Origin: a candidate division CPR3 bacterium GWF2_35_18
Lineage (GTDB): Bacteria > Patescibacteriota > CPR3 > GWF2-35-18
Direction of reading: 5' to 3'
Assembly (NCBI GenBank): GCA_001771135.1
Contig: MESW01000008.1
Coordinates: 2,373-66,372, forward strand
DNA: 64,000 nucleotides
Position numbers and translations under genes: made by a program. A model generated the notes under the pieces. The model was given only the letters and a program-made list of their open reading frames with translations. It was not told where the DNA came from and ran no database searches. Below are positions 12,779-64,000 of this stretch, one piece after another (within the stretch, counting starts at the first letter, position 1; each line of letters begins with the position of its first letter).

Positions 12779-12783
12779 GATGT

Positions 12784-13020: not shown

Positions 13021-13030
13021 GACATACTCC

Positions 13031-13330: not shown

Positions 13331-13419
13331 AGCGGGTCTCCTTTCTAGAATAGACGGATAGGATGGGGTGTTGAATCTGAATAATTCTATTGGTATATCT
13401 TGATAGGTCACTTCCTTTC

Positions 13420-13434
13420 TTGAATGTTATTCAA
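13420..13434. promoter_or_regulatory. Inverted repeat TTGAAT-gtt-ATTCAA in the divergent promoter region. Candidate operator.
   Basis: Perfect 6-bp inverted repeat with a 3-nt spacer, between the divergent island operon and the P-type ATPase gene. Confidence 0.3.
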
Positions 13435-13503
13435 TTTGTTGAAAAGGTGATGGGGGATCCTCTTTCGAGGTGCGACTTGAGAGGTTATTCTATCAAATTT
13501 TCA

Positions 13504-13531
13504 TTGTAAATTGAAGCAGTTTCGATATAAT
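13504..13531 (+). promoter_or_regulatory. Sigma70-like promoter for the P-type ATPase gene.
   Basis: TTGTAA, a 16-nt spacer, then a perfect TATAAT about 35 nt upstream of the ATG at 13566. Confidence 0.4.
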
Positions 13532-13565
13532 AGAAAAGTAATTTAATTTTTAACCTTTTAAAATT

Positions 13566-16268: not shown

Positions 16269-16392
16269 GCCAAAGAGATACTATCTTTAAATATATCTTA
16301 TTTCCTGATATAATAACCTGTCCATTCCCTCAATAAGAGGTGATCCCCATTTAGAAAAGACAACTGAATATGATATGAAAGGAGAGTGATTT

Positions 16393-16959: not shown

Positions 16960-16986
16960 AAATGCACCTAAAAATTTCAAATGTAA

Positions 16987-20099
<3,113 letters not shown>

Positions 20100-41556: not shown

Positions 41557-41600
41557 ATAAGTAAGATGTTCGATGGAAATTTATTTATCCTACTCCCCTC

Positions 41601-43279
<1,679 letters not shown>

Positions 43280-43282
43280 TTA

Positions 43283-44101
43283 TTATACACGACTATAATT
43301 ATATTTATGAAGTTCTCTAAGTTTTGCATCTATTTGTTCTCGTCGTTTTCTATTATATTGATGGATTAATATTTTGTTTTGATCTTCCGCGTTGTCATGA
43401 GCATTCTTCATTTCAATCATTTGTGCCGCGTTATACGCAAGTAAAGATTCTTGGAAATAGTTATAGATCAATATTCCGATGATGGTTTTGTTAAAATATT
43501 TAACTACTTCATTAACATTGGGTTCAACTCTAAATCGTTCATCAATATCTTCAAATTTTTTTTGACTTTTTTCTTTATTTGGTTTTGTAATTAAAGATAC
43601 TACTTCAACTATCTGTTGTACTGCACTTTTATATCTTGGGAAAACAATATGAATATGTGCATACGTTCCTAAGATGTCTTTTAATGGTTCTATTTGTTCA
43701 TATTTTACTTTGTTAGGAATACTAAAAAAATGGATTGTGCGTTCATTTCTCTTTATGAAATGATTGTGTCCTTTTTTGCCGGTAATTAAAAGATCCGCTT
43801 TGTATTCTTTATAGAGATGTTCCCCTTTTTCAAGTACTTTATTGAGTAAATTCCCATACATACCTCTATTCAGAGTAAGTACTACAACAAGATGTTTATT
43901 ATTTACTTCCGGTCTTTCAGGTGTTAGCTGTTGTAATGTTCGATACACTTTCCAGGTTTCCTCAAAAAAAAGTCTACTTTTCAATATCTTTTCTCTGGTT
44001 TTAAATATTTCGTTTGCCGCACTTTGCTCCAGTGCTTGCGCAATTTCTCCGAGATATTCAACTGCTTTAATTTTATTTCTTAATATTTCTAGAGACTGCA
44101 T
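43283..44101 (-). CDS. atpG: F1-ATPase gamma subunit.
   Basis: Gamma-like N-terminal (SLEILRNKIKAVEY...) and C-terminal coiled-coil helices. 272 aa. Located between the alpha and beta genes. Confidence 0.75.
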   Translation of the reverse strand: MQSLEILRNKIKAVEYLGEIAQALEQSAANEIFKTREKILKSRLFFEETWKVYRTLQQLTPERPEVNNKHLVVVLTLNRGMYGNLLNKVLEKGEHLYKEYKADLLITGKKGHNHFIKRNERTIHFFSIPNKVKYEQIEPLKDILGTYAHIHIVFPRYKSAVQQIVEVVSLITKPNKEKSQKKFEDIDERFRVEPNVNEVVKYFNKTIIGILIYNYFQESLLAYNAAQMIEMKNAHDNAEDQNKILIHQYNRKRREQIDAKLRELHKYNYSRV

Positions 44102-45656
44102 ATTGATCGCCGGTTGATTCTTTTAAAAGATCTACTATTGTTTCCTTTTCAGCTTCTGATTGTTCTGTCTTTTGAACTATTGGAGGTGTTTTAGGATCTT
44201 TGATAAAATCATTAATTACAGATTCTAAAATCTCTTTTGATTTATCTAACGATTTTAAAGAGAGTGCTTTTTGAACAGAAGCTATATATGAATCTTCTTG
44301 AGAATAACTATGAAATTTTAGTTTTAATTCAGCTATAACTTCATAATTCCACATTAGTATTTTTTTTGAAACGAGTAAATAAAGCATTCCAATTTCATAT
44401 TCTAATGTAAGAAGATCATTAAGAGATTGATGGAAAATAAGATCGATTCTTTTCCCTAGTTCAATAATCTCATAGGTGTTTTTTTGTATTTCTGTTCCCA
44501 GGGAGATGAATTTTTCTACCTCATGGTAACGAATTATCACTGTTTTAAGTTTATCCGATAATTCGCGTAATAGTTTTGGTTGCGATTTTCCTCCAATTCT
44601 GGTAACGGAATAACCAATATCTATTGCTGGTTGAATACCTTTATTTGCTAGGCTTTGTCTAAATAAAATGTGTCCATCTGTTATGGCCATAAGATTTGTT
44701 GTGATGAAGTCAGTAAATTCTTCACTTTGAGTCTCAACAATAGGAATAGCTGTAATAGAGCCATTTCCTACTTTATCACTAAAACTTCCACATCTTTCCA
44801 ATAGCCGGGTATGTAAATAGAAAATATCTCCTGGATAAGCTTCTCTTCCGGGTGGTCTATTGAGGAGTAATGAAAGTTGTCTATATACTTTAGCGTGTGC
44901 GGTTAAATTATCGAATACGATAAGAACATCTTTTCCTAGACCTGCTAGAGTTTCAGCAATTGTCATTCCTGTCATTGGAGCAATATAGTTTAAAGATGCA
45001 GGATCAGAAGATCTTGATAAAATGACAATCGTGTTTCTAAATGCTCCGTATTGGTATAGCTGGCTGAGTCTTCTCTTTACATGAGTAGATTCTGCGTCAA
45101 TAGTGACAAAAATACTTGCTACATTAGAATTAATTTTAGTTTGATTTGCAATAATCGCTGCAGCCACATCGCTCTTTTTAATTTTCTTTTCTCCGATAAA
45201 CAACTCTCTTTGTCCTTTTCCTATGGGAATTTGCGAATCGATTAATATATATCCGGTATTTAATTGCGTTATAATTTGTTTTCTTTCATTAACTTTTTTA
45301 GCCGTTCCTTCTATATCCTTTAAAAGGCCTTTTTCGATCTCTCCTTTGTTATCCAGTGGTTCCCCAAGTGGGCTTATAATTCTTCCAAGTAGCTTTTCAC
45401 TGACATTGATTTTTAAAGAAGGACTAATTATTTTTACCAATTCGCCACGCCGTAAATTTTGATAATTTCCGAGGAGAATAATTTGAGCTTCTTGTTGCGT
45501 AAATCCTAGAACAATTCCCCTTACTCCTGATGAAAATTGTACCACATTATTGAGAGCTACAGATTCCAATCCGCTTATGATACAGACTTCATTTATAATT
45601 GATTCTACTCTGCCGACACTTTCTTTTACACCAATTGAATTAAAACTTTTTGTCAT
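44073..45656 (-). CDS. atpA: F1-ATPase alpha subunit (native copy) with a degenerate Walker A motif and an extended C-terminus.
   Basis: Collinear with alpha (IPIGKGQRELFIG..., [41 protein letters not shown]). The canonical GDRQTGKT is replaced by GEKKIKKS, confirmed from nucleotides 45171-45200. 527 aa. Confidence 0.9.
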   Translation of the reverse strand: MTKSFNSIGVKESVGRVESIINEVCIISGLESVALNNVVQFSSGVRGIVLGFTQQEAQIILLGNYQNLRRGELVKIISPSLKINVSEKLLGRIISPLGEPLDNKGEIEKGLLKDIEGTAKKVNERKQIITQLNTGYILIDSQIPIGKGQRELFIGEKKIKKSDVAAAIIANQTKINSNVASIFVTIDAESTHVKRRLSQLYQYGAFRNTIVILSRSSDPASLNYIAPMTGMTIAETLAGLGKDVLIVFDNLTAHAKVYRQLSLLLNRPPGREAYPGDIFYLHTRLLERCGSFSDKVGNGSITAIPIVETQSEEFTDFITTNLMAITDGHILFRQSLANKGIQPAIDIGYSVTRIGGKSQPKLLRELSDKLKTVIIRYHEVEKFISLGTEIQKNTYEIIELGKRIDLIFHQSLNDLLTLEYEIGMLYLLVSKKILMWNYEVIAELKLKFHSYSQEDSYIASVQKALSLKSLDKSKEILESVINDFIKDPKTPPIVQKTEQSEAEKETIVDLLKESTGDQYAVSRNIKK

Positions 45657-46225
45657 GAATAGATTTTTTCTACTTTATTTTCTAAATATAATTGTAAATA
45701 ATAAATAAGGGCATTTTTAAATGAATAGTCAAGCAAATCACCTCTAATAAGTAGTGTAAATCCTGCTGTTAATGACTTATCAACTTCAAAAATAATTCTT
45801 TTTGAGTTATATCTTTTTACATCATCTCCCAGTCTTTTTGCTATGGTATTTTTAAAATTATCGGAAAGTGCAATTGCAGAAGAAAAAACAATCTCTTCAG
45901 CAGAGGAAAGTTGCTTCAAAAATATCTCATAGAATTCTTTTCCTGTTTCATCAGTTAACGTCCATAAAAGTTTTTTATCAGTAATATCTAATAAAAATTG
46001 AAATATTTCTTCGGATATTTGATCTTTGAAAAGAAAAATAATCGTTTCTTTAATCTTTTCTTTTTTTGCATCTTTATCTGAAAATAGTTTAGTGATTTCT
46101 TCAGAAAAATTTACTTTATCAAAAATAATTCCCATATCTCTCGCTATTTTCTTGTATGGAGAAAAAACAGTATATTGATGTAAAATATCTAATACCTCTT
46201 TAAGTTGCTCGGTTTTCATCTTCAT
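45653..46225 (-). CDS. atpH: F-type ATPase delta (OSCP) subunit.
   Basis: 190 aa with a delta-like C-terminal segment (LTAGFTLLIRGDLLDYSF). It lies between the b and alpha genes with ATGA-type overlaps. Confidence 0.7.
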   Translation of the reverse strand: MKMKTEQLKEVLDILHQYTVFSPYKKIARDMGIIFDKVNFSEEITKLFSDKDAKKEKIKETIIFLFKDQISEEIFQFLLDITDKKLLWTLTDETGKEFYEIFLKQLSSAEEIVFSSAIALSDNFKNTIAKRLGDDVKRYNSKRIIFEVDKSLTAGFTLLIRGDLLDYSFKNALIYYLQLYLENKVEKIYS

Positions 46226-46754
46226 AAATCTTCATTAATTTTTTAATAATATCTTCATGTTGTTCGAGAGTAAATTCTTCTTTGATATATTGTTTTAATG
46301 CCCAGTCAATGGCTTGAGAGGATTCATTAATTGTCTGTTCATAAATCTTACTAGCTTGTTTTTGAGCTTGTGTTTTTATCTTAATTCCATTTTCTTGAGC
46401 TTCACTAATTATCTTAGTGGCTTCTTTCTCTGCTTCAGAAAATATATCTTTTAAATGATTTCCAGAATCAACAAAAGCTCTTTTAGTTACTTCTTCAATT
46501 ATTTTTTTATTCTCTTCAGCTGAATTCTTATGAATGTCTATAGCCTTTTCAGCTGCATCATTGAAATATTTTTTTGTATCTTCTCGTGCAATATGTCCTA
46601 ATTTGGTAAAAGAATTTTCTAAGGCCTTGAAAGAGAGATAGATACGCCATAAGTAAATAATAATAATTATATTTAATACAGCAACAAATAATATGGTATA
46701 AGTTATATTATTTCGTAATAGTTGGTTAAATGTTTCAACAAAGGTGATATTCAT
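46200..46754 (-). CDS. atpF: F-type ATPase b subunit (single N-terminal TM plus a long charged helix).
   Basis: N-terminal TM (YTILFVAVLNIIIIIYLW) followed by a K/E/A-rich helical region. 184 aa. Confidence 0.7.
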   Translation of the reverse strand: MNITFVETFNQLLRNNITYTILFVAVLNIIIIIYLWRIYLSFKALENSFTKLGHIAREDTKKYFNDAAEKAIDIHKNSAEENKKIIEEVTKRAFVDSGNHLKDIFSEAEKEATKIISEAQENGIKIKTQAQKQASKIYEQTINESSQAIDWALKQYIKEEFTLEQHEDIIKKLMKIYEDENRAT

Positions 46755-46761
46755 AAAATAA

Positions 46762-47961
46762 TTAATCTCTCAAAGCTAATAGTGGATCCATACTAACAGA
46801 TCTACGTGCTGGAATTATTCCAATTAAGAAACCGAGAATAAAAGCAATTACTATCATTATTATACTAATAATATAAGGTGTTTCATAGAGCTTGAATAAA
46901 GGAGTATTGATTTGTGATGCTACATAAGCAACTCTAAGGTTAACAAGATAACCAAATCCAGAACCAATAAGTAATCCTATTAATGTTCCTCCTACTGAAA
47001 GAATAATAGATTGACAATAAAATAAAATTTTTACATCTTCTTGTCTAATACCGATAATTCTTAAAAAACCAATTTTTTTAATCTGTTCCATGAGAACAAT
47101 CGTAATCGTATTTAAAATACTAGAAATTGCAACCAAAAGCGTAATGGATCCTAATATAATAAGTAGTATCCGTAAAATACCTAGAATACGCTCTACCTGA
47201 TCAAAAGTATCTTGAATATTACTAGTTTTAAAACCTAGAAGTTCAATATTTTCCCTTATCTCGTCAATTTCATTTAAGTTGCTCACAATTACTTTTGTTT
47301 GACTAGCATAAGTAATTCCTATATTGTAAAGGTCCTCGGCTGGTATATATGCAAGTGGAGATTCTTCTTTATCAATAATTCCAATAACGGTATATTCATT
47401 ATCTGCAATAGTTTTTGTTACCCCATCAATATTATCGGTGAGGTTTTTGGTTAAGACAAAATTAATCATTATATTTCTTCCTATCAGGTCATCCGGATTT
47501 GAAATTCCATAGTCTTGCAAAACAGCTTTGCTTAATATTATTTTCTTTGTATCTCCTAATTCAAAACCTTTTCCCTTCAAGTATGATAAAGATAAAGTGT
47601 TCATGTATGTAGGAGTAATTCCGTAAAAAGGAAGAGTTTGAGAAATTCCGTGGAATAAAGCGTCTCCAGAGAGATTAATGATGGGCTCAACACTTTCAAC
47701 ACCAATTAAAGATCTAAATTCACCAAGGCGGACTTTATCTATTTTTAGTTGTTGTGTTTTTAATGAAGTAACTGTAATAATGTTTCGTGATTCGGAGTTT
47801 TCCATTTCAGTATTAACCATATTTTCTAAACCATATCCTAAACCACTCATGAACATTATCATACTGACACTAATCCCCACTCCTCCCATGGTTAATATAG
47901 TACGGATTCTTTTTGAAAAAACATTAATTACAGCTAACCTAATAATATATAAAATACTCAT
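46762..47961 (-). CDS. ABC transporter permease, MacB/FtsX-like (4 TM with a large extracytoplasmic domain).
   Basis: N-terminal TM, a roughly 230-aa periplasmic-like domain, and three C-terminal TMs. Sits 8 nt downstream of the ABC ATPase gene. Confidence 0.75.
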   Translation of the reverse strand: MSILYIIRLAVINVFSKRIRTILTMGGVGISVSMIMFMSGLGYGLENMVNTEMENSESRNIITVTSLKTQQLKIDKVRLGEFRSLIGVESVEPIINLSGDALFHGISQTLPFYGITPTYMNTLSLSYLKGKGFELGDTKKIILSKAVLQDYGISNPDDLIGRNIMINFVLTKNLTDNIDGVTKTIADNEYTVIGIIDKEESPLAYIPAEDLYNIGITYASQTKVIVSNLNEIDEIRENIELLGFKTSNIQDTFDQVERILGILRILLIILGSITLLVAISSILNTITIVLMEQIKKIGFLRIIGIRQEDVKILFYCQSIILSVGGTLIGLLIGSGFGYLVNLRVAYVASQINTPLFKLYETPYIISIIMIVIAFILGFLIGIIPARRSVSMDPLLALRD

Positions 47962-47969
47962 ATCGTTTT

Positions 47970-48761
47970 TTATTTTTTATTTGGTGATTCAATATAGCTT
48001 ACTACTTCTTTTATGCTGTGTAATGGACTATTTTGTTGTTTAATATTCCAAAGCCTTCCGTCTTTGACAAAAAACCATTTTTTTGAAAATTTTAAAAATT
48101 CAAAATCGTGAGTAACCATGACAATTGTTTTATTTTCTTTGGTATTTATATCCACCAGAATTTTAATTACTTCTTCAACTGATTGTGTGTCCAGGTGTCC
48201 AGTAGGCTCATCTGCAAAAACAATCCAAGGATCATTAATTAAGGCTCTGGCTATAGATGCTTTTTGTTTTTGTCCCGAAGAAGCTTCGGTAGGACGATGC
48301 TTTTTGATACTATCAATACCAAATGTGTCAATGAATTTTTGAGCCTTTTTTAAAGCAATTCCTTTTCTAGTTCCTTGCATGATAAGTGGAAGAGCTATAT
48401 TCTCATGTAAGGTTAATTGTTCTATCCATATTTGTTGTTCTGGGATTAAACCAAATCTTTTTAGTCTAATCTTGGCTCGATCCTCATTACTGAAATTATA
48501 AAAAGACTCTTCTTTTAAAATCACTTCTCCGATATCCGGTTTTTCAATTCCCATTAAGATATTAAGTAATGTTGATTTTCCTGCTCCAGAAGGGCCAAAA
48601 ATAATAACAAAATCTCCGTAATTGATTTGAAAAGATACATCTGAAATCGGAGTTACCATTTGTTTACCGATTTTGAACACTTTTGTTACTCCGACAGCTT
48701 CAAGAATAGGTGCCTTTGTAAAATGCTGAATTGAGGTCTTATCATCTTGGATACTCATCAT
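47970..48761 (-). CDS. ABC transporter ATP-binding protein (MacB/LolD-like).
   Basis: Walker A GPSGAGKST, signature SGGQKQ-like (SSGQKQKASIARAL), Walker B IVFADEPTGHLD, and an H-loop. Confidence 0.9.
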   Translation of the reverse strand: MMSIQDDKTSIQHFTKAPILEAVGVTKVFKIGKQMVTPISDVSFQINYGDFVIIFGPSGAGKSTLLNILMGIEKPDIGEVILKEESFYNFSNEDRAKIRLKRFGLIPEQQIWIEQLTLHENIALPLIMQGTRKGIALKKAQKFIDTFGIDSIKKHRPTEASSGQKQKASIARALINDPWIVFADEPTGHLDTQSVEEVIKILVDINTKENKTIVMVTHDFEFLKFSKKWFFVKDGRLWNIKQQNSPLHSIKEVVSYIESPNKK

Positions 48762-48765
48762 ATTT

Positions 48766-51700
48766 TTAGTTTATTTTAAGTATTTTTTCAAATAAATCGA
48801 TAATAATATCTAGCATAGAATATTCTGGTTCTGAAGCTATGGCCACAGTACGTTCTCCATAACTAATATTGCCTGTAAGGTCTGTAGAAAGAGGTTGGAT
48901 CTTGTAAATTTTTTCTATCGGTAAGTTTGACAAGACTACAACATGAGAAGTTGTTGTTTCCGTATCTAAAGGAGATTCATTTACAAGATCTTCTTTACTT
49001 CCTATGCTATAGCGAATTTGACTAGTTGAAGGTTCATCAGTCTTCCAAGAAACGATAATTTGACTTCTTGCGTTAGAAGCTACTCCAGTAGTAGATATTT
49101 CAACAATAAGATCTGACATTACAGGAGGACGAGTATCTATTTGAGAAGTCCACCTTTGAACTGTACTAGTGACGATTACTCCATATCGATCACGTCCTTT
49201 AATAATAAAACTATATTCAGTATTGCTAAATAAATCATTAATAGTCATAGAGTGAATAGTTTCAAGATCACTTTTGGCTACTTCTTTTTTTAATCCTCCT
49301 CCATCGTAAATAATAAATGAGTCGGTTGGAATATTGGTTCGCCAATTTACTTGAACAGAGTTAAATTGGTCGGCTATAGGTTGGAAAGTAATATTAGTGA
49401 TTTCTGGGTAAGGTAACGTATTAAATGAATAATCATCACTAGTAATTATTGTCCCGAATTCAGTATCTGCAATAATTTTAAAATGATATATTGAACTATC
49501 GTTACTACTTTCGAGATTAGAAAATTCATAGAAGTGTGTTAAAACGGCAACAGTCTCTCCTTCTATTGGAAGTCCTTCAATTGGAGTTAGTTCATAATTA
49601 AGGTTTTTACCATAAGTGATTTTAGATTTTGTCGGAACTGTAGATTTCCAAGTTACCATGGCGCTATTTTGGGTAATGCTATTTTGATCTACAATCACAT
49701 CATATATTCTTGGAGCTTCTTGTGTTTGAAATGAATAGATAGGAGAAAAAGCGTCCGAATCAAGATAGTTTTTATTTTTATCGATACTTAAGACTTTATA
49801 ATAATAAGTAGTTTTTGGGCTAAGGTCTGTTATTGTTATTATATGTTCTTTACGCAAATCTTCATGGTCTCGATCACGTTTTAGATCATTTTGTTGTAGT
49901 CCGATATAAACTGCTCCTTCAGTATCTCTTTCTGTAACCCAGACGATTTCTGCTCTATCAGACCCTGCTTTTACAGTTGGTCCAGAGTTAACCTTTGGCG
50001 GAAAATTAAATACTCCTTCAGGTCTTTTTGTAAATGCCGAAGATTCTCCTCCACAGTTATCGACGCTATCACAAGCAGATACTTTATAAGTATAAGTATT
50101 CTCAGTATTAACCCTCAAATCGACATATGCGGTATCGCTAACTTTTCCAATTTGGTTAAAGATATTTGCTCCATTTTCAGCTCTCCAAACAATGTAGTGA
50201 TCTATTCCGTTTCCTTTAAAAGCCGGAGCGTCCCATGTAAGAGTTAAAGACCATCTTACATTAGCTTGATCAGAAGTATCACTAACAATAAGATTCATAG
50301 GGATTCCCGGGGAAATGGTATTAGCCGTAAAATTAATGGTTGCAGGATATAACCAATTAGCATTTCCGGCTTCATCTAGAGCTATAACAGATAAAATATT
50401 TACGCCTCTTTTAGTAGCAGCTCTAAAAGGACTTATGTATCTGTTTGACGTACAGGTTGTATTAGAATAGCTTAATGGTGGTTCAGCATTTATAGCATAA
50501 CAGTAAGTTAAAAGATCTGCTGATCCAGAAAACATAGCTGGGAGATCCCATGTGAAGGCGAACATATTCATAGTTGATATCGGAGGTATTGCGGCTAAGT
50601 TTGTGACTTTACTAGGAGGGTCATTAGAGAAATAATATGATGCAGTCATATATGATGAAGCAAAGTTACCCGCGACATCTTTTGCTCTTAAATAGAATGT
50701 ATTCGTTCCATTTGTGTACATGGCTGGAATATCAGTTAATAAAAGGCCTGTTTGACATTTTTCGGTTGCATATATTCCTTGAGTCGCTCCAGTCTTATAA
50801 CAATAACTATGTATTTTTGAATGTTCGTCATAAGCATTTGGCCATTCAAAAGTATACTTATTTATAGTTGTAAATCCAGAAGGGGTGACTGTAATCATCG
50901 GTGGATTATCTGGAGGAATGTTATCAAATTTATAAATTATTGGCGTAAAAATATTAGAATCAATATTTCCAGTATAATCGACTGCCTGTAAGCTGAAGTA
51001 ATATGTGTTTGAGGTTGTAAGATTAGCTTCATAGTATGAGTTTTCCGTAAATACTCCAGAAGTTAAAGGTACTGCAGAAGGATCGGTGCTGAAAGAAACA
51101 TAGTATCCTTTAATATGTGATCCGAGTAAGCCATCAGTCGCTCCTCCGGCTTCGCCTGGATCTGGCCAGTCAAAATAAGGTTTTGCGTAGTTGTACCATT
51201 TATTTGTTTCTAATTCGGTTGTTTTTGTATCATCAGTATAATATTTAGTAATGGTTGGATTTGTAGGTGGAGTAACGTCAAAATAATAGTCTAGGGCGTA
51301 ACTTGATAGTTTTGGAGTGTAGACGTTGTCATATGAATACATAATAACCTTAAGTTGTAAATATTTTTGTGGTTGTGATGCTACTCTTGTACTTAATTCT
51401 CCGGTAAATAGTTTGATTTGGTCAGTCAATTCCCATTCATTCCAAGTATTTCCGTCGATCGAAGTTCTAGTATAAAATTCAATATCTGTATTTTCTGGAA
51501 TAGAAACTTCAGCTTTAATTCCAGCATAATCGAATAGTCCGCTTACTTCCATCGGTTGAGATATATGGACTCCAAGCCCCTGATATCCTGTTGTTGCTGA
51601 TGGGAAGTTAAATTGGAGAATATGTGGATTATCTTGTCCCGGAATAGCAAGAGCTTTAGATTCGCTTATTTTTACTAGATTCCCGCCATAAGCAAAATAA

Positions 51701-54700
51701 TCAGGAGATGATGTTCCTTCCACCCATTGATTAGTAGCAATATCGTAGACATACATATTCTTTTGGGCATTACCTCTCATTGCATAGATCTTTCCTTGTT
51801 GCATCACCATAGTGTTTCCATAAGTTGTTGTCACAGGGAAATTTGCTAAAGTTGTCCAGCTATTATTAAAAATATCATACTGGTAAAAAGCGTTTGATCC
51901 ATTACTGCGAAGAGCATAAATGTAATTATCTCCGTCATAAACAAAGGATGCATTAAGTATATTTGCAGGAAAAGCTCTCAAAGATTCCCAAGTTCCTCCG
52001 TTTACATCTGGAGTATAACGATAAAATTGATTATCATTTCCTCGAGGAAGGTATAAATATCCATTTTTATCTACTACTAAGGAACTTGCTCCAGGTCGAT
52101 ATATAGTATTTAAAGTGTCAGTCATCTTTTCCCATTGGTATTTACCAAAATCAAATCGATAGAAGTTGGTTCTGCTTCTACCTGGTTCGTAGTATAGATA
52201 TCCATTTGAATATGCAATTGATCCTCCTATTCCAATATATGGAGGTGGTGGTAAGTATGTGAATTCATTTTTAGAAGTTGAATATTTTAAAAGATAGGAA
52301 TAATCACTTTCATTTCTATTTATAATATAAACATTATCTTCTCCATCGAAAGTAGCTGTTGTGGCTTGTCCTGCATACCATTCAATTCCATTTTGTAGAT
52401 CCCAACGTCTGCGTTGTAATGAGGGAGGTTGCAAATATCCTAAAGAAGTAAATTTACTATTCCAGGTATCGTATTGAAGAATGCGACGAGTGTTCCCAAG
52501 TCCTGGGATTATATATATGTAACGATTTCTATCATCACTCAGAGAGCCCCATGAGCTAATTGGGAATCCAGAGTTTATTGCTTTCCAGGTATCTGTGGCA
52601 ATGTTATATTTGAAAGCAGTGGCGTAACCATTTGTCATAAAATCCTGTCCAAAGATATATAGATTACCTTGACTATCCCCTGCTAGGTTACTTTGGACAT
52701 ACCAAAAATTGTATGGAGGAGTTGCCATCCATCTCCAGGTATCAGTAGAGATAGTATATTTTGCTAGTCCTCTCTGATACCAATCAGATGTTCCGAAGTT
52801 GACATATAAAGAATCTCCACCGTCATACCATATTCCTGATCCAGAATAATAAGTATTAATAGTTGTGGGTAAAGAGGTTAGATTTCCCCATCCGCCGGTT
52901 TCCGTATTATACTCATAGAAATCAATATTTCCAGAAAATACAAATAATATTTTGTTATTTCCAATATATTCCATATCAGTTCCATAGCTAGCGTTAACCG
53001 GAAGATTAGATAAAGGAGCATCCCAGATTTGATTTACAATGTCATATCTATAAAAACCATTTGTACTATTACCACGAATATAATAAATATATTTTTCTTG
53101 ATCCCACACTAAAGAACTTCCAATATAAGCCGTTGCGGGTAACGGAGGAAGATTTGTATCCCAAGTCTGTGATACTAAATTATATCTCCAGAAATTTGTA
53201 GTATTATTCCCGCGTGCTATGTATAGATAATCTCCTATAACAACGGAGGCTGAACCTGTTGCATAATCAGGTAATGAGGTGAAAGATCCTTCAGACCATG
53301 ATCCATAAGGTAATTTTTTTAATGATGCCGATCCTTCTTCGGTTATTAAGTCTAGATTAGTATTGGTTCCTTGAGAGAGTTGTTCATATGAAGTTGTTAG
53401 TTGTGATTCTGGTGGGGAAATATACCAATAACGATAGCTAAAAAATGTTTGGATTGCTGAGACATTTCCTTTATTATCTTTTACTTTAATTCTAACGTAA
53501 TAAATATCTCCACTAGTCATCGGAGATGTTACAACGTAAGTATTATTAGCTTGAAAACTACCATCTACCTCTGGGTCTGCGGCGACATTTGTTCCGTAAT
53601 ATACATAATACCCTGCTATTCCAGAGCCGTTATTTCCATCATTTGCTCCATTCCATTCGAAGTATGGGTGTTGGTATTCGTATGTTTGACCCGTAGTTAA
53701 AGTTTCCCCGGTAGCTGTTCCTTTGGCTACAAATTGTGAAGGAAGATTTGGAGGGATCACATCTTCTTCATAAGTAAATTGAATATTAGAAACTGTAGGA
53801 GTAGATAAGGTATCTCCATGTAGTGCTAGTTTAAATTGAAGATATCTTTTTGGGAGGGATTGTATGTTCCCTCCTGTTATTGGAAGCCATTGATCCCAAA
53901 TTCTACCATTATTTGAAGTTCGAGAATATGCTGTTACTGTGCCTGTGCCAGTAATTGAGGTTTGAAAAGTAGACCATGCTTGTACATGAGTTAAATCAAT
54001 CGATTTTGAGTACCAGACTCCATCAGCTACATAAGTATCTGTTGCTGTAGTCCAGTACCACATATGACTAATTACTGCTGTTGGGGAAACATAAACACGG
54101 TTTGTATTATTATCATAAAAACCGTAAGCAGCAACTTGTGTATAAGAAGGAAGGTTTGCTAGTCTTTTCCAACTGCTATCAGTTGTATCATAGCGATAGA
54201 AAAGTTGAGCTGTAACTGATGTGCGATTTGCAGGTACGAAGTAAAGATAACGACTTGTGTCTCCAACTAATACTCCCCCATGTTCTACAGATCCATTTGG
54301 AATATTTATTGGAAGAGTTGTCCATGTATTACCAGCTACATCGTATTTCATAAAATAGGGTGTACCTCCTCCAGAAAAAGCGTAAATATCTGCTCCAATT
54401 TTTTCTATTCCTCCTCCGCTTCCGATTGCTATTGGAGCAGAAGTTAAACTACCCCAGGTGTTATTAATAATGTCGTAACGATAAAAATTTACTCTTCCTC
54501 CAGGAGAGTAGTAAATATATCCATCCTCTCCGTCTATCATATCGCATCCATAAGTAGTTGCGTATGGAAATGTGGCTAGAGTAGCCCAAGTACTGTTTAT
54601 AAGGTCGAATTTATAAAATATTGTATTTCCATACCAGGATGCTAGGTATAGAGCATTATCTTTATATATTCCCGCAATTCCCGCTCTTGCTCCACTTATA

Positions 54701-55977
54701 GGATATGAACCTACTTTTGTTCTAACCTTTGTAGTTAGGTCCATCTTATAAATATCGGTTAATGACCCCCAATTTTGTCCGGATACATAATAGATAGTAT
54801 TGTCTCCGTCGTATATCGGAGCTCCATGTGCATAACCATAATTTGGGTCATAAAGGTTGTATCCATTTACGTTCCAATTGTCTGTACTGACACTATAGCT
54901 GTATAGAATTGGATGCTGATACATTCCCAATAATGTGTAGATAGTGTCTACTCCGTCAAAAACAGCAGTTACGCCCCAATCATAGGTTTGTCCTGTTGGC
55001 GGTGTTGAGAGACTTACCCATTGGTTGTTAGATATATTATATTGTTGTAAATAAGAGATATCTCCATGTACGTAAATTCCGAGTTTTAAAATCGTATTTG
55101 AAGATGTCAGCATTATCTGTGTTTTCTGACAAACATTATTGTTTGGAGGGACTGTTAGTCTTGGTTCCCAAATATTATTAGCGATTGAATATTTTCGAAA
55201 TTCTCCATTACATCCTGCTAGAGCATAAATTGTATCATTATTATCCCAAGTGAGGCTGATTCCATATCCTGGGACAGATACTGGAAATGATGCCATTTGT
55301 TCCCATTGATTAGAGGTAATGTTATATCGCCAGAACATCGTGGAAACACTTCCTCTAAAACCATACAAATAATTACCATTAATAGTTTCAACATAAATAA
55401 CATCTGTTCCTGCATTAACTGTTTGTGGATGATCTGGTAATACTGTCCATATATTTTCAGATAGAGAATATTTATAAAATTCTGATTTTCCTCCTGCAGG
55501 AAGTAGATACATAGTATCGTTTTTATCCCAAGTAAGAGCTACTCCAGTTCCTATTCCAGAAGGTGGAGCTTCTAGTGTTTCCCATGTTTTTAGTTCTAGA
55601 GAATATTTGAGGAAAAAAGTTCTTCCACTGTCAACATATCCTTGTGTAATAAGGTAAAGCGAATCGTTAGGTCCATATATTATTTCTGTATCTCCATAAA
55701 TTAAAATTGGAGGTTCGAGTAGTCCATCATCTGTTTCCCAACTTCCAACGTCACCACTTTGAAGTTTTATTTCACCTTGAGTAGAAACATCAATATTATT
55801 GAAATTAGAGATTCCTTCAGTAAGATCTTTATTTGAAAAGGAGTATGTTGCGGCACTATTGGGTGTCGGAGTATATACACTTAAAGTAAAAATTACCATA
55901 AGTGTTATAACTAATAATCTCCAAGAAAAAGATAATTTCCTGGTATGTGATAATAAACGTTTATTTCTTTTTTTCAT
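48766..55977 (-). CDS. Giant (about 2400 aa) secreted or N-terminally anchored protein with Kelch/galactose-oxidase-type beta-propeller repeats and fibronectin-III/Ig-like domains.
   Basis: N-terminal basic-plus-hydrophobic anchor (KKRNKRLLSHTRKLSFSWRLLVITLMVIFTL). Many W-x-x-L / DxxIYxxGG-type Kelch-like repeats (NTWTTL, NQWEQM, DNTIYYVSG). Fn3-like segments (YYVRIKVKDNKGNVS, YTYKVSACDSVDNCGGES). Start is uncertain: the ATG at 55977 is used here and the ORF track uses the TTG at 55992. It sits 4 nt upstream of the ABC gene. Confidence 0.8.
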   Translation of the reverse strand: MKKRNKRLLSHTRKLSFSWRLLVITLMVIFTLSVYTPTPNSAATYSFSNKDLTEGISNFNNIDVSTQGEIKLQSGDVGSWETDDGLLEPPILIYGDTEIIYGPNDSLYLITQGYVDSGRTFFLKYSLELKTWETLEAPPSGIGTGVALTWDKNDTMYLLPAGGKSEFYKYSLSENIWTVLPDHPQTVNAGTDVIYVETINGNYLYGFRGSVSTMFWRYNITSNQWEQMASFPVSVPGYGISLTWDNNDTIYALAGCNGEFRKYSIANNIWEPRLTVPPNNNVCQKTQIMLTSSNTILKLGIYVHGDISYLQQYNISNNQWVSLSTPPTGQTYDWGVTAVFDGVDTIYTLLGMYQHPILYSYSVSTDNWNVNGYNLYDPNYGYAHGAPIYDGDNTIYYVSGQNWGSLTDIYKMDLTTKVRTKVGSYPISGARAGIAGIYKDNALYLASWYGNTIFYKFDLINSTWATLATFPYATTYGCDMIDGEDGYIYYSPGGRVNFYRYDIINNTWGSLTSAPIAIGSGGGIEKIGADIYAFSGGGTPYFMKYDVAGNTWTTLPINIPNGSVEHGGVLVGDTSRYLYFVPANRTSVTAQLFYRYDTTDSSWKRLANLPSYTQVAAYGFYDNNTNRVYVSPTAVISHMWYWTTATDTYVADGVWYSKSIDLTHVQAWSTFQTSITGTGTVTAYSRTSNNGRIWDQWLPITGGNIQSLPKRYLQFKLALHGDTLSTPTVSNIQFTYEEDVIPPNLPSQFVAKGTATGETLTTGQTYEYQHPYFEWNGANDGNNGSGIAGYYVYYGTNVAADPEVDGSFQANNTYVVTSPMTSGDIYYVRIKVKDNKGNVSAIQTFFSYRYWYISPPESQLTTSYEQLSQGTNTNLDLITEEGSASLKKLPYGSWSEGSFTSLPDYATGSASVVIGDYLYIARGNNTTNFWRYNLVSQTWDTNLPPLPATAYIGSSLVWDQEKYIYYIRGNSTNGFYRYDIVNQIWDAPLSNLPVNASYGTDMEYIGNNKILFVFSGNIDFYEYNTETGGWGNLTSLPTTINTYYSGSGIWYDGGDSLYVNFGTSDWYQRGLAKYTISTDTWRWMATPPYNFWYVQSNLAGDSQGNLYIFGQDFMTNGYATAFKYNIATDTWKAINSGFPISSWGSLSDDRNRYIYIIPGLGNTRRILQYDTWNSKFTSLGYLQPPSLQRRRWDLQNGIEWYAGQATTATFDGEDNVYIINRNESDYSYLLKYSTSKNEFTYLPPPPYIGIGGSIAYSNGYLYYEPGRSRTNFYRFDFGKYQWEKMTDTLNTIYRPGASSLVVDKNGYLYLPRGNDNQFYRYTPDVNGGTWESLRAFPANILNASFVYDGDNYIYALRSNGSNAFYQYDIFNNSWTTLANFPVTTTYGNTMVMQQGKIYAMRGNAQKNMYVYDIATNQWVEGTSSPDYFAYGGNLVKISESKALAIPGQDNPHILQFNFPSATTGYQGLGVHISQPMEVSGLFDYAGIKAEVSIPENTDIEFYTRTSIDGNTWNEWELTDQIKLFTGELSTRVASQPQKYLQLKVIMYSYDNVYTPKLSSYALDYYFDVTPPTNPTITKYYTDDTKTTELETNKWYNYAKPYFDWPDPGEAGGATDGLLGSHIKGYYVSFSTDPSAVPLTSGVFTENSYYEANLTTSNTYYFSLQAVDYTGNIDSNIFTPIIYKFDNIPPDNPPMITVTPSGFTTINKYTFEWPNAYDEHSKIHSYCYKTGATQGIYATEKCQTGLLLTDIPAMYTNGTNTFYLRAKDVAGNFASSYMTASYYFSNDPPSKVTNLAAIPPISTMNMFAFTWDLPAMFSGSADLLTYCYAINAEPPLSYSNTTCTSNRYISPFRAATKRGVNILSVIALDEAGNANWLYPATINFTANTISPGIPMNLIVSDTSDQANVRWSLTLTWDAPAFKGNGIDHYIVWRAENGANIFNQIGKVSDTAYVDLRVNTENTYTYKVSACDSVDNCGGESSAFTKRPEGVFNFPPKVNSGPTVKAGSDRAEIVWVTERDTEGAVYIGLQQNDLKRDRDHEDLRKEHIITITDLSPKTTYYYKVLSIDKNKNYLDSDAFSPIYSFQTQEAPRIYDVIVDQNSITQNSAMVTWKSTVPTKSKITYGKNLNYELTPIEGLPIEGETVAVLTHFYEFSNLESSNDSSIYHFKIIADTEFGTIITSDDYSFNTLPYPEITNITFQPIADQFNSVQVNWRTNIPTDSFIIYDGGGLKKEVAKSDLETIHSMTINDLFSNTEYSFIIKGRDRYGVIVTSTVQRWTSQIDTRPPVMSDLIVEISTTGVASNARSQIIVSWKTDEPSTSQIRYSIGSKEDLVNESPLDTETTTSHVVVLSNLPIEKIYKIQPLSTDLTGNISYGERTVAIASEPEYSMLDIIIDLFEKILKIN

Positions 55978-56059
55978 ATTAACTATAATCAAATAGTCTA
56001 TTAAAATTATGACATGTTCTTACCATGAATACAATATGAATTTGGATTGGGAATAATAA

Positions 56060-64000
<7,941 letters not shown>

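What the first reader, a model, noticed from the sequence alone, without database searches (positions are those of the whole stretch)
45171..45200. Native F1 alpha subunit has lost its Walker A P-loop (GDRQTGKT replaced by GEKKIKKS)
Alignment with E. coli alpha is collinear ([25 protein letters not shown] versus IPIGKGQRELFIGEKKIKKSDVAAAII). The second glycine and the GK[ST] core are gone, and the following AIGQKAST segment is also altered. I re-derived this from the nucleotides (ttt atc gga gaa aag aaa att aaa aag agc). The non-catalytic alpha sites normally bind nucleotide. An alpha that cannot bind it, combined with a truncated epsilon and the missing a/c genes, points to an F1-like module with altered regulation or function.
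Basis: seen in the sequence. Interest (0 to 1): 0.6.

Follow-up and report, generated by a model that had tools for sequence, protein, structure and literature searches.

The report
Alpha subunit of an ion-blind F-ATPase
The odd alpha subunit is real and belongs to an apparently undescribed ATP-synthase relative, widespread in ultrasmall Patescibacteria, that has no proton channel and whose membrane ring subunit is fused to a giant cell-surface protein, so it looks like an ATP-burning motor for surface machinery rather than an energy-conserving enzyme.

Summary
The alpha gene (44073-45656, minus strand) reads GEKKIKKS where F1 alphas read GDRQTGKT, and AIGQK has become TIDAE. It is not an error: the identical protein is on 14 contigs. 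Only 4 of its 120 closest homologue clusters keep GxxxxGK[ST].

The trait is not a benign quirk of a normal ATP synthase. These alphas form a sharply separate family. In all eight genomes checked the gene order is the same, and upstream views in five more genomes complete it as one 11-gene cluster:
- a TPR membrane protein;
- a ~2,600-aa NHL surface protein ending in an F-type c-subunit hairpin that lacks the ion-binding carboxylate;
- a second giant Kelch/FN3 protein;
- a MacB-type ABC transporter;
- b-like, delta, alpha, gamma, beta and a short epsilon.

No a subunit was found. Beta's catalytic motifs and alpha's arginine finger are intact.

A sister class has shorter c-fusions and still keeps alpha's P-loop, so the P-loop loss came later. 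Conventional Patescibacteria operons have a, c with the carboxylate, full epsilon and a canonical alpha.

Best reading (inferred): an ATP-hydrolysis-driven rotor carrying surface proteins, in which alpha's regulatory nucleotide site became dispensable. The closest analogue is the mycoplasma F1-like X0 ATPases. No description was found in the searchable literature.

The parts
45171..45194 (-). Remnant of the alpha Walker A (P-loop): GEKKIKKS in place of GDRQTGKT
   Evidence: Family statistics: canonical motif in 4 of 120.
44073..45656 (-). Alpha-like (non-catalytic) subunit, 527 aa
   Evidence: Pfam ATP-synt_ab_N, ATP-synt_ab and ATP-synt_ab_C. Best PDB sequence match is Thermotoga alpha, E=1e-100. 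AF2 model pLDDT 87; all top Foldseek hits are F1 alphas, TM 0.82-0.86. Scores below the NCBIfam atpA cut-off, 426.7 < 484.45.
45087..45104 (-). TIDAES replacing the conserved AIGQKxS strand and Gln of the non-catalytic site
   Evidence: Gly to Asp in 105 of 120, Lys to Glu in 86 of 120.
44901..44918 (-). Alpha Walker B region VFDNLT (conventional: IYDDLS)
   Evidence: The second Asp is Asn in 64 of 120.
44589..44609 (-). SVTRIGG: the alpha arginine finger that completes the catalytic site on beta, conserved
   Evidence: Arg in 120 of 120
44124..44153 (-). Family-specific C-terminal tail motif AEKETIVDLL on alpha
   Evidence: The motif A[ED]xE[ST]hxxhL (h = hydrophobic) occurs in 112 of 120 family members and 0 of 65 conventional alphas. 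Predicted as a helix with low confidence.
41834..43273 (-). Catalytic beta subunit, 479 aa, all catalytic motifs intact
   Evidence: [27 protein letters not shown] and AVYVPADD present. Passes NCBIfam atpD, 595.6 > 462.85.
43283..44101 (-). Gamma subunit, 272 aa
   Evidence: Pfam ATP-synt E=4.6e-35. Below the NCBIfam equivalog cut-off.
41601..41861 (-). Short epsilon, 86 aa, beta-sandwich domain only, no C-terminal helices
   Evidence: Pfam ATP-synt_DE_N positions 1-78 of 80. Epsilon is 79-90 aa in all relatives of this cluster, against about 130-150 aa in most conventional operons.
45653..46225 (-). Delta (OSCP) subunit, 190 aa
   Evidence: Pfam OSCP E=5e-11
46200..46754 (-). b-like peripheral-stalk subunit, 184 aa, one N-terminal membrane helix plus a long helix
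   Evidence: jackhmmer from this protein recovers the ORFs at the b position of conventional operons. Only weak Pfam and NCBIfam hits, to HrpE/FliH and V-type E.
46762..47961 (-). MacB/FtsX-type ABC permease, 399 aa
   Evidence: Pfam MacB_PCD + FtsX. Adjacent to the b-like gene in 8 of 8 genomes.
47970..48761 (-). ABC ATPase partner of the MacB-type permease, 263 aa
   Evidence: Pfam ABC_tran. Closest NCBIfam model is LolD.
48766..55992 (-). Giant surface protein B, 2408 aa, N-terminal membrane anchor, Kelch propellers, FN3 domains
   Evidence: Pfam. Homologues of 2403-2448 aa lie at the same position in relatives. L003 has a 521-aa version.
56060..63829 (-). Giant surface protein A, 2589 aa: signal/anchor sequence, NHL-repeat propellers, Ig-like domains, C-terminal c-subunit hairpin
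   Evidence: Pfam NHL x5 and TEN_NHL. On 13 contigs. Homologues of 2348-2583 aa in L089-L091, L093 and L094, and 2568 aa in L003.
56072..56278 (-). F-type c-subunit-like hairpin (aa 2518-2586) with the RNP loop conserved and no acidic residue in helix 2
   Evidence: HMM built from 68 conventional c subunits: E=3.6e-10. Family profile against PDB: all 25 hits are F-type c subunits, best E=8.5e-7. NCBIfam: seven F-type subunit C models and one V-type subunit K model, best E=9.9e-9. Pfam ATP-synt_C E=0.002, below threshold. JGI names fragments 'ATP synthase membrane subunit c'. 0 of 22 fusions have D/E in TM2, against 124 of 125 free c subunits. AF2 predicts a helical hairpin with its turn at RNP.
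63835..64000 (-). 3' end of a 207-aa membrane-anchored TPR protein gene, cut by the window edge: first gene of the cluster
   Evidence: Homologues (36-40% identity) lie immediately upstream of giant protein A in L089, L090, L091 and L094.

Best explanation
The alpha with the degenerate P-loop is the non-catalytic subunit of a distinct derivative of the F-type ATPase, found in several Patescibacteria lineages. I call it type G here.

Shown by the data:
- It is encoded by a conserved, tightly packed 11-gene cluster: TPR membrane protein; giant NHL surface protein ending in a c-subunit hairpin; second giant Kelch/FN3 surface protein; MacB-type ABC ATPase and permease; b-like; delta; alpha; gamma; beta; short epsilon.
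- No a subunit is in the cluster, and the c hairpin has no ion-binding carboxylate.
- Beta keeps every catalytic motif, and alpha keeps the arginine finger and the interface residues.
- A sister class (type M) has shorter c-fusions, no a subunit and a short epsilon, but still keeps alpha's Walker A.

Inferred:
- The complex cannot translocate ions, so it is neither a proton-driven synthase nor a proton pump.
- It most likely burns ATP in beta and turns gamma-epsilon against a ring of c hairpins. The F1-docking loop RNP is invariant. Torque or motion is thereby transmitted to the ~280-kDa extracellular domains fused to each hairpin.
- The b-like/delta stalk, and probably MacB and giant protein B, would serve as the stator.
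- Such a machine never switches between synthesis and hydrolysis. The two classical regulators, ATP binding at alpha's non-catalytic sites and the epsilon C-terminal domain, would then be dispensable.
- Alpha's pocket was not merely left to decay. It was refilled with newly conserved charged residues: Glu at P-loop position 2, Lys/Arg at positions 3-4, Asp/Glu just after the loop, and Asp and Glu in place of the Gly and Lys of GQK. This would make alpha a nucleotide-independent structural partner, as subunit B is in V/A-type ATPases.
For: - Motif and coordinates.
- Family-wide degeneracy with the interface retained.
- Separate family: 467-1127 bits for members, against at most 356 bits for conventional alphas. 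Below all curated alpha cut-offs.
- Identical gene order around alpha in 8 of 8 genomes spanning 47-58% alpha identity, with unrelated flanks.
- The upstream half of the cluster in 5 further metagenome contigs.
- c-like hairpin.
- Carboxylate absent in 0 of 22 fusions, present in 124 of 125 free c subunits.
- An a subunit is detected in 65 conventional loci but in none of the cluster loci.
- Conventional Patescibacteria operons have a, c, a full-length epsilon and GDRQTGKT.
- Southlakia has only the conventional operon.
- Beta motifs intact.
- Type M keeps the P-loop and groups with type G: NJ tree 100/100 and 6 shared derived residues.
- Genes abut or overlap, and there are no terminator-like sites in the stretch scanned, 41400-49000.
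- Walker A mutations in alpha abolish non-catalytic binding, and V-type B binds no nucleotide (PMC4171097).
Against: - No experiment. Rotation, ring formation by the fused hairpins and loss of nucleotide binding are all inferred.
- Engineered alphas without non-catalytic binding fall into MgADP inhibition during hydrolysis (PMC4171097). That is awkward for a dedicated hydrolysis motor unless something compensates.
- Without an a subunit it is unclear what holds the stator in the membrane. Most type M loci have no MacB nearby.
- Alpha's N-terminus, which normally binds delta, is about 20 residues shorter.
- The hairpin scores below the curated Pfam and NCBIfam cut-offs, and its AF2 confidence is only 50-60.
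- I could not search the whole source genome for free a and c genes. The co-occurrence test was inconclusive.
- The G+M grouping could owe something to long-branch attraction.
Confidence: 0.55

Rival explanations
1. Non-rotary coupling. The F1-like head is tethered to the c-like hairpins merely as membrane anchors. It acts as a conformational ATPase, or as an assembly or export ATPase like the FliH-FliI-FliJ complex of type III secretion, that helps secrete, fold or actuate the giant proteins together with the MacB mechanotransmission pump. Alpha is a pure scaffold.
For: - The b-like subunit has weak hits to HrpE/YscL/FliH and V-type E.
- MacB-type pumps work by mechanotransmission (established knowledge), and one is linked in all type G loci.
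- No stator partner equivalent to the a subunit was found.
- An alpha lacking non-catalytic sites would be prone to MgADP inhibition, which argues against sustained rotation.
Against: - The full rotor set (gamma, the epsilon N-domain and the c loop RNP that binds them) is conserved, and so is the peripheral stalk b/delta. That only makes sense if rotor and stator must be distinguished.
- Type III ATPases are homohexamers. Here the alpha/beta alternation and the arginine finger are kept.
- Most type M loci lack MacB.
Confidence: 0.25
2. An ordinary F1Fo ATP synthase with a split operon. The a and c genes lie elsewhere in the genome, the degenerate alpha P-loop is a harmless lineage trait, and linkage to MacB and the giant genes is gene-order inertia.
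For: - Split atp operons exist in other bacteria (established knowledge).
- I could not scan the rest of the 334-kb contig or genome.
- JGI and NCBI pipelines often name these proteins F-type ATPase subunits.
Against: - A c hairpin is in the cluster, but fused and without a carboxylate.
- In every conventional Patescibacteria locus, a and c sit directly upstream of delta/alpha, and alpha is canonical.
- The family is separated by more than 100 bits from conventional alphas.
- Gamma, delta, epsilon and alpha all fall below the equivalog cut-offs.
- The same 9-11 gene order persists across 47-58% alpha identity while the flanks differ.
- Type M shows the same a-less, carboxylate-less arrangement in another gene order.
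Confidence: 0.1
3. Hybrid enzyme. The canonical, foreign-looking alpha2/beta2 pair at 17008-20099 supplies nucleotide-binding alpha or extra catalytic subunits to the same complex. The degenerate alpha would then be a decaying duplicate in this genome.
For: - alpha2 keeps GDRGTGKT and passes the atpA cut-off.
- The pair has no gamma, epsilon, a or c of its own nearby.
Against: - The degenerate alpha is conserved in more than 100 sequence clusters.
- None of the seven relatives' loci inspected carries a second alpha/beta pair within 10 kb of the cluster.
- alpha2/beta2 are 52-63% identical to Anaerolineae subunits and sit in a GC-rich island, so they look like a recent import.
- The degenerate alpha shows strong purifying selection at the interfaces.
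Confidence: 0.03
4. Artefact or pseudogene: a sequencing or assembly error in the 24-nt stretch, or a decaying gene.
For: None beyond the unusual motif itself.
Against: - The identical protein is on 14 contigs from several assemblies.
- The ORF is intact, and neighbours overlap it in a coupled arrangement.
- 116 of 120 relatives are non-canonical at the same position, while 91 of 144 universally conserved columns are retained.
- The AF2 model is confident through the loop, pLDDT above 90.
Confidence: 0.01

Closest known systems
Bacterial F1Fo (F-type) ATP synthase
   Same: Homologues of b, delta, alpha, gamma, beta, epsilon and c, in the canonical order b-delta-alpha-gamma-beta-epsilon. Alpha has the full three-domain fold (TM 0.82-0.86 to solved alphas). 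Beta's catalytic motifs and alpha's arginine finger are conserved.
   Different: - No a subunit.
- c is a C-terminal domain of a 2589-aa surface protein and lacks the carboxylate.
- Alpha lacks Walker A, GQK and part of Walker B.
- Epsilon lacks its C-terminal domain.
- Alpha has a shorter N-terminus and a new C-terminal motif.
- The cluster adds a TPR protein, a second giant protein and a MacB-type ABC transporter.
- Alpha, gamma, delta and epsilon score below the NCBIfam equivalog cut-offs.
Mycoplasma F1-like X0 ATPases (Type 2 G1-ATPase of the M. mobile gliding motor; Type 3 needed for the MIB-MIP antibody-cleavage system)
   Same: - An F1-derived alpha/beta/gamma/epsilon module without Fo a and c, encoded with non-Fo membrane proteins.
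- It is functionally tied to surface machinery.
[quoted passage not shown] That is the same topology as the c-fusion here (PMC12994834, PMC3369863).
- It occurs in a genome-reduced, host-dependent bacterium.
   Different: - Mycoplasma alpha-like subunits keep a conserved Walker A.
- They lack b and delta, and have a 12-helix membrane protein and a small cytoplasmic protein instead of MacB, TPR and giant protein B.
- The window's alpha scores below the cut-offs of both mycoplasma alpha models (353.6 < 600; 263 < 520) and is closer to atpA, so the origin is probably independent.
- Homology of the mycoplasma two-helix protein to c was not tested.
Subunit B of V-type and A-type ATPases
   Same: It is the non-catalytic partner in the hexamer, has no consensus P-loop and, in bacterial V-type enzymes, binds no nucleotide (stated in PMC4171097). 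It still donates interface residues to the catalytic site.
   Different: A different paralogue lineage. The window's alpha scores 156.7 against a cut-off of 349 for V-type B. The loss here is a recent, independent event inside the F-type alpha lineage, because the sister class type M still has the P-loop.
Engineered Bacillus F1 / FoF1 without non-catalytic sites (alpha K175A/T176A, 'deltaNC'), also combined with epsilon C-terminal deletion (PDB 8yh8)
   Same: The same two features occur naturally here: no Walker A Lys/Thr function in alpha, and an epsilon without its C-terminal domain.
   Different: The engineered enzymes keep a normal Fo and are laboratory constructs. They show severe MgADP inhibition of steady-state hydrolysis. 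The natural family has further conserved substitutions around the pocket that may compensate.
N-ATPase (alternate F1Fo, atpDCQRBEFAG)
   Same: A second, divergent F-type set found alongside or instead of the standard one.
   Different: N-ATPases keep a and an ion-binding c, and have their own gene order with AtpQ and AtpR. The window's alpha scores 395.8 against a cut-off of 750.5.

Membership tests
F0F1 ATP synthase subunit alpha (NCBIfam TIGR00962 atpA equivalog) | Whole-protein score at or above the curated cut-off (484.45 bits) | tested here: not met
   426.7 bits. The second alpha in the window (18405-20099) scores 681.1 and passes.
F0F1 ATP synthase subunit alpha | Three-domain alpha/beta-family architecture and fold | tested here: met
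   Pfam PF02874, PF00006 and PF00306. AF2 pLDDT 87. Foldseek top 50 hits are all F1 alpha chains, TM 0.82-0.86.
F0F1 ATP synthase subunit alpha | Walker A GxxxxGK[ST] and the GQK and DD elements of the non-catalytic nucleotide site | tested here: not met
   GEKKIKKS, TIDAES and FDN. Canonical Walker A in 4 of 120 family members.
F0F1 ATP synthase subunit alpha | Arginine finger and catalytic-interface motifs | tested here: met
   [22 protein letters not shown] and TN..ITDG are conserved. Arg in 120 of 120.
F-type ATP synthase (whole complex) | An a subunit (ATP-synt_A) encoded with the complex | tested here: not met
   jackhmmer from E. coli a finds a in 65 conventional loci and none in the window, L001-L008 or L089-L094. 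Precomputed Pfam lists show no PF00119 within 10 kb of the cluster. The rest of the genome was not searchable.
F-type ATP synthase (whole complex) | Free c subunit with an ion-binding Asp/Glu in helix 2 | tested here: not met
   The only c-like sequence is aa 2518-2586 of a 2589-aa protein. No D/E in helix 2 in 22 of 22 fusions, against 124 of 125 free c subunits with one.
F-type ATP synthase (whole complex) | Catalytic beta with Walker A, catalytic Glu and Walker B | tested here: met
   [17 protein letters not shown] and [10 protein letters not shown]. atpD score 595.6 > 462.85.
F-type ATP synthase (whole complex) | ATP synthesis or ion pumping coupled to rotation | not testable with these tools
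   Needs biochemistry. Sequence features (no a subunit, no carboxylate) argue against ion coupling.
Mycoplasma F1-like X0 ATPase, alpha-like subunit (NF045863 MMOB1660 family; NF045936 MSC_0619 family) | Score at or above the curated cut-offs (600; 520) | tested here: not met
   353.6 and 263 bits
Mycoplasma F1-like X0 ATPase (cluster) | Seven-gene cluster: 12-TM protein, small cytoplasmic protein, gamma-like, epsilon-like, large secreted protein with two C-terminal TM helices, alpha-like, beta-like; no b or delta | tested here: not met
   Only the gamma, epsilon, alpha and beta homologues and the 'large protein with two C-terminal helices' have counterparts. b-like, delta, MacB, ABC, TPR and a second giant protein are present instead.
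N-ATPase (alternate F1Fo; TIGR03324 alpha) | Score at or above 750.5, and the atpDCQRBEFAG gene order with a and c | tested here: not met
   395.8 bits. The gene order is b-delta-alpha-gamma-beta-epsilon without a.
V/A-type ATPase subunit B | Score at or above the cut-off (349 for NF003235) | tested here: not met
   156.7 bits. It resembles B only in lacking a P-loop.
Type III secretion / flagellar ATPase (FliI/SctN) | Score at or above the cut-off (379.5 for TIGR01026); homohexamer with a functional Walker A | tested here: not met
   176.7 bits. No Walker A. Paired with a distinct beta.
F-type c subunit (Pfam PF00137; NCBIfam subunit C models), for the C-terminal hairpin of the 2589-aa protein | Score at or above the curated cut-offs | tested here: not met
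   - Pfam: 18.7 bits < 24.
- Best NCBIfam: 35.1 bits < 122.
- Homology is nevertheless supported: custom c HMM E=3.6e-10; family profile against PDB hits only F-type c subunits, best E=8.5e-7; NCBIfam hits are seven F-type subunit C models and one V-type subunit K model.
- Filed as c-derived, not as a functional c.

The most novel reading that the evidence does not exclude
Many Patescibacteria carry an ATP-powered rotary motor whose rotor is exposed on the cell surface. It would be a ring of c-subunit hairpins, blind to ions, each covalently fused to a ~280-kDa NHL-propeller adhesin. An F1 head with a nucleotide-free alpha would spin or torque the ring, braced by a b/delta stalk, a MacB-type transporter and a second giant protein. 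The cell would use it to grip, drill into, move along or mechanically manipulate host cells. It would be the first F-type machine that converts ATP directly into extracellular mechanical work through its own c-ring. It would also mean that part of what is annotated as 'ATP synthase' in these organisms is not bioenergetic at all.
Probability: 0.4. Interest if true: 0.92.

Novelty: new variant of a known kind. Interest (0 to 1): 0.8.

Why it matters
Patescibacteria (the candidate phyla radiation) make up a large share of bacterial diversity and mostly lack a respiratory chain. [quoted passage not shown] In the one species tested genetically, the conventional enzyme is dispensable (PMC10633639).

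This analysis shows that a whole family of these 'ATP synthase' genes, often auto-annotated as F-type H+-transporting ATPase subunits, belongs to a different machine. It has no a subunit. Its c ring cannot bind ions and is fused to giant surface proteins. Its alpha has given up its nucleotide site.

Three consequences follow:
- Metabolic reconstructions that infer chemiosmotic capacity from alpha, beta and gamma hits may be wrong for such genomes.
- It offers a concrete, testable candidate for how these epibionts act mechanically on their hosts.
- It provides a natural experiment on what the non-catalytic sites of F1 are for. They were retained while the enzyme lost ion coupling (type M) and were lost afterwards (type G).

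Tried and rejected
- **Genome scan, single protein.** The genome-contig scan with the single alpha found nothing, because the patterns were too specific.
- **Genome scan, alignment.** It served as a control set, but gave no named genomes carrying the cluster.
- **Co-occurrence test.** None matched, so the test is inconclusive.
- **Homologues of the giant protein's C-terminus.** The search returned only three fragments. Giant proteins seem poorly indexed.
- **Taxonomy.** The listing of cluster members gave no organism names.
- **Signals.** The promoter scan was at chance level, and the terminator scan found none in 41400-49000. This is compatible with one operon but not decisive.
- **Structure search on the hairpin.** AF2 of the hairpin region had low confidence in the membrane helices, so I did not run a fold search on it.
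- **Rejected: sequencing error.** The identical protein is on 14 contigs and the trait is family-wide.
- **Rejected: pseudogene.** The interfaces are conserved.
- **Rejected: N-ATPase, V-type B and type III ATPase membership.** All score below their curated cut-offs.
- **Rejected: the alpha2/beta2 island as an assembly chimera.** The same junctions occur on 17 contigs, including NCBI MESY01000024.1.
- **Literature.** Ten full-text searches found no description of this cluster, of a c-subunit/giant-protein fusion, or of alpha P-loop loss in these bacteria. The library does not cover all journals.


Full report
**1. The observation**

The finding lies inside a 527-aa ORF on the minus strand, 44073-45656. 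Translating 45141-45230 on the minus strand gives IPIGKGQRELFIGEKKIKKSDVAAAIIANQ.

The protein is a true F1 alpha homologue:
- Pfam finds the beta-barrel, nucleotide-binding and C-terminal domains.
- The best solved relative is Thermotoga alpha, E=1e-100.
- An AlphaFold2 model built from 43 family members has pLDDT 87 and pTM 0.85, with above 90 through the strand-loop-helix that carries the motif.
- All top Foldseek matches are F1 alpha chains, TM 0.82-0.86.

Where F1 alphas read GDRQTGKT, this one reads GEKKIKKS. The Lys and Ser are still there, but the second glycine is Lys. VAIGQK has become VTIDAE, and the Walker B pair DD is DN.

**2. Not an error and not general decay**

The identical protein is recorded on 14 contigs. 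It is named 'hypothetical protein A2X44_01830, candidate division CPR3 bacterium GWF2_35_18'.

Among its 120 closest 90%-identity clusters:
- only 4 keep GxxxxGK[ST];
- position 7 is Gln in 71 and Lys in 28;
- the Gly of GQK is Asp in 105;
- the Lys of GQK is Glu in 86;
- the residue after the loop is Asp or Glu in 117.

By contrast the arginine finger (SVSR), PGD.FYLH and TN..SITDG are invariant.

I also compared against the 144 columns that are at least 95% conserved in 70 conventional alphas. Of these, 91 are kept in at least 80% of the family. The 31 lost columns include the Walker A, GQK and neighbouring pocket positions. So the non-catalytic site was remodelled specifically, while the rest stayed under selection.

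**3. A separate family**

An exhaustive HMMER search over 1.84 billion representatives shows family members at 483-500 bits, then a gap to 356 bits or less for conventional alphas at 32-41% identity.

Scores against curated NCBIfam models:

| Subunit | Model | Score | Cut-off | Result |
|---|---|---|---|---|
| alpha | atpA | 426.7 | 484.45 | fails |
| alpha | N-ATPase alpha | 395.8 | 750.5 | fails |
| alpha | MMOB1660 (mycoplasma) | 353.6 | 600 | fails |
| alpha | MSC_0619 (mycoplasma) | 263 | 520 | fails |
| alpha | V-type B | 156.7 | 349 | fails |
| gamma | F1 gamma | 100.3 | 194.45 | fails |
| delta | F1 delta | 45.6 | 57.5 | fails |
| epsilon | F1 epsilon | 51.2 | 67.25 | fails |
| beta | atpD | 595.6 | 462.85 | passes |

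**4. Gene context**

On the minus strand the window holds ten abutting or overlapping genes, with gaps of 67 nt or less:
- giant protein A, 63829-56060, 2589 aa
- giant protein B, 55992-48766, 2408 aa
- ABC ATPase
- MacB/FtsX permease
- b-like
- delta
- alpha
- gamma
- beta
- epsilon, 86 aa, N-domain only

No terminator-like site occurs between 41400 and 49000.

I looked up seven relatives with 47-58% alpha identity. Each shows the same order from giant protein B to the short epsilon, while the genes outside the cluster differ.

Looking up giant protein A shows a 207-aa membrane-anchored TPR protein 5 nt upstream. Its 3' end is at window 63835-64000. It is conserved at that position in four other contigs. 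The unit is therefore 11 genes.

**5. The c subunit is not missing**

I built an HMM from 68 conventional c subunits collected from control loci. It matches residues 2518-2586, the extreme C-terminus of giant protein A, at E=3.6e-10. It also matches the equivalent giant protein in L003.

Further support for the hairpin:
- A profile of six such domains hits only F-type c subunits in the PDB (25 hits, best E=8.5e-7).
- NCBIfam hits seven F-type subunit C models and one V-type subunit K model (best E=9.9e-9).
- Pfam ATP-synt_C is sub-threshold (E=0.002).
- JGI annotated two fragments as 'ATP synthase membrane subunit c'.
- AlphaFold2 predicts an Ig-like domain, a helix and then a helical hairpin with its turn at Arg-Asn-Pro, though confidence in the hairpin is only 50-60.

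The loop GRNP, which corresponds to the RQP loop that docks gamma and epsilon, is invariant. No fusion (0 of 22) has an acidic residue in helix 2. Among free c subunits, 124 of 125 do.

The fusion topology is consistent. With an N-terminal signal or anchor sequence and the hairpin loop in the cytoplasm, the giant NHL-propeller part lies outside the cell.

No a subunit was detected in the window or in any cluster locus. The same search found one in 65 conventional loci.

**6. Three classes**

A metagenome scan with the hairpin profile, together with the control loci, sorts F-type operons into three classes:

| Class | a subunit | c subunit | alpha P-loop | epsilon |
|---|---|---|---|---|
| Conventional (including seven Patescibacteria operons) | present | free, with carboxylate | GDRQTGKT | 130-150 aa in most |
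| Type G (the window's family) | none | fused to a ~2,350-2,590-aa protein, no carboxylate | degenerate | 79-90 aa |
| Type M | none | fused to a 650-800-aa protein, no carboxylate | canonical GDRK[ST]GK[ST] | 89-96 aa |

Type M also has b-like, delta, gamma and beta. MacB and its ABC ATPase are adjacent in one type M locus (L013).

Type G and type M alphas group together in a neighbour-joining tree (bipartition in 100 of 100 bootstraps) and share six derived residues, for example TNLMSITDGH against [10 protein letters not shown]. Long-branch attraction is a caveat.

The simplest history has two steps. First came loss of ion coupling and fusion of c to a surface protein. Later, in type G, came expansion to giant proteins, fixed linkage to MacB, and loss of alpha's nucleotide site.

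**7. What it most likely does**

Shown:
- the catalytic beta is intact;
- alpha keeps its contribution to the catalytic site;
- rotor parts (gamma, the epsilon N-domain, the c loop) and stator parts (b-like, delta) are kept;
- the parts needed for ion translocation are absent.

Inferred: the complex hydrolyses ATP to turn or torque a ring of hairpins that carries large extracellular domains.

For such a machine the synthesis/hydrolysis switch is irrelevant. That fits the loss of both classical regulators. The first is the epsilon C-terminal domain. The second is ATP binding to alpha, which in Bacillus enzymes relieves MgADP inhibition and is abolished by alpha K175A/T176A (PMC4171097). The newly conserved acidic and basic residues in the former pocket suggest that side chains now fill it. 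This would parallel subunit B of bacterial V-type ATPases, which binds no nucleotide (same paper).

Open problems:
- the engineered site-less enzymes are strongly MgADP-inhibited;
- nothing obvious replaces the a subunit as the membrane stator;
- alpha's delta-binding N-terminus is about 20 residues shorter;
- a conserved C-terminal tail motif (112 of 120) has no known partner.

**8. Comparison with known systems**

The nearest functional analogue is the mycoplasma F1-like X0 ATPases. These are an F1-derived module without Fo. They are clustered with a 12-helix membrane protein and with a large secreted protein that ends in two membrane helices. They drive gliding (Type 2) or are required for the MIB-MIP antibody-cleavage system (Type 3) (PMC12994834, PMC3369863).

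The differences are clear:
- mycoplasma alpha-like subunits keep Walker A;
- b and delta are absent there;
- the partner proteins differ;
- the window's alpha is closer to atpA than to the mycoplasma models.

I therefore treat this as an independent, parallel repurposing. It works like an F1-like X0 ATPase but is not a member of that family.

The cultivated Saccharibacterium Southlakia epibionticum has only a conventional atpI-a-c-b-delta-alpha-gamma-beta-epsilon operon, which is dispensable (PMC10633639 and its supplement). Type G is therefore not universal in the phylum.

Ten full-text searches found no description of the cluster.

**9. Limits**

- I could not search the rest of the source genome for free a and c genes.
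- Named members are CPR3, Patescibacteria group, Saccharibacteria, Saccharimonadales and one bin labelled Chloroflexi. The taxonomy of most members is unknown.
- All mechanistic steps beyond gene content and motif state are inference.

**10. Verdict**

The feature is a defining trait of an apparently undescribed, ion-blind F-type ATPase derivative fused to giant surface proteins.

Noticed in passing
window 17008-20099 (+), within the GC-rich stretch at about 10000-20000: An orphan beta (466 aa) then alpha (564 aa) pair with canonical Walker A motifs. Both pass the atpD and atpA cut-offs. They are 52-63% identical to Anaerolineae (Chloroflexi) subunits, with GC 0.43-0.46 against about 0.33 elsewhere. 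No gamma, epsilon, a or c lies nearby. The same arrangement is on 17 contigs, so it is real and looks horizontally acquired. It recalls the extra atpA/atpD pairs of mycoplasmas.
   Followed up: partly
window 19365-19520 (+): The foreign-looking alpha2 carries a 52-residue insertion ([16 protein letters not shown]...KLRG) in its nucleotide-binding domain. The insertion is absent from its closest relative in the local set and from Priestia alpha.
   Followed up: no
window 16393-16959 (+) and 13566-16268 (+): A 188-aa ORF with no Pfam or NCBIfam match sits directly upstream of beta2. Before it is a 900-aa P-type cation ATPase. All lie in the same GC-rich island.
   Followed up: no
window 10224-10308 (-): tRNA-Leu(CAA), the only RNA gene found in the window, lies at the edge of the GC-rich island. 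It is a possible integration site.
   Followed up: no
window 40627-41556 (+): A XerC/D-type tyrosine recombinase gene lies convergent with the end of the epsilon gene. It is not conserved next to the cluster in relatives.
   Followed up: no
L013:4484-16096; also L095, L098, L101, L102, L104, L111, L114, L125: A sister class ('type M'). A 650-800-aa surface protein ends in a carboxylate-less c hairpin. It is followed by b-like, delta, an alpha with an intact P-loop, gamma, beta and a short epsilon, with no a subunit. L013 also has the ABC ATPase and MacB directly upstream, and its alpha has a long Pro/Glu/Lys-rich tail.
   Followed up: partly
window 44124-44153 (-); family-wide: Alpha has a family-specific C-terminal extension with the motif A[ED]xE[ST]hxxhL (112 of 120 members, 0 of 65 conventional alphas) and an N-terminus about 20 residues shorter than usual. 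The tail recalls the mycobacterial alpha extension that hooks gamma, but no partner is known here.
   Followed up: partly
L004:15370-16131; L006:17570-18749: Near the cluster in relatives there is a heliorhodopsin gene (L004), and a reverse transcriptase with a bAvd accessory gene, i.e. a likely diversity-generating retroelement (L006). Whether the retroelement targets the giant surface proteins was not examined.
   Followed up: no
L057:7899-8603: In a Marinamargulisbacteria MAG, a conventional operon encodes a 234-aa c subunit made of three tandem hairpins, next to a normal 83-aa c.
   Followed up: no
(protein sets P0001-P0120 and P0272-P0391): Conventional Patescibacteria alphas are very uniform: the 120 best hits are mostly 79-100% identical to the query. 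The cluster's alphas are only 45-58% identical to the window's alpha, so the repurposed enzyme evolves much faster.
   Followed up: no
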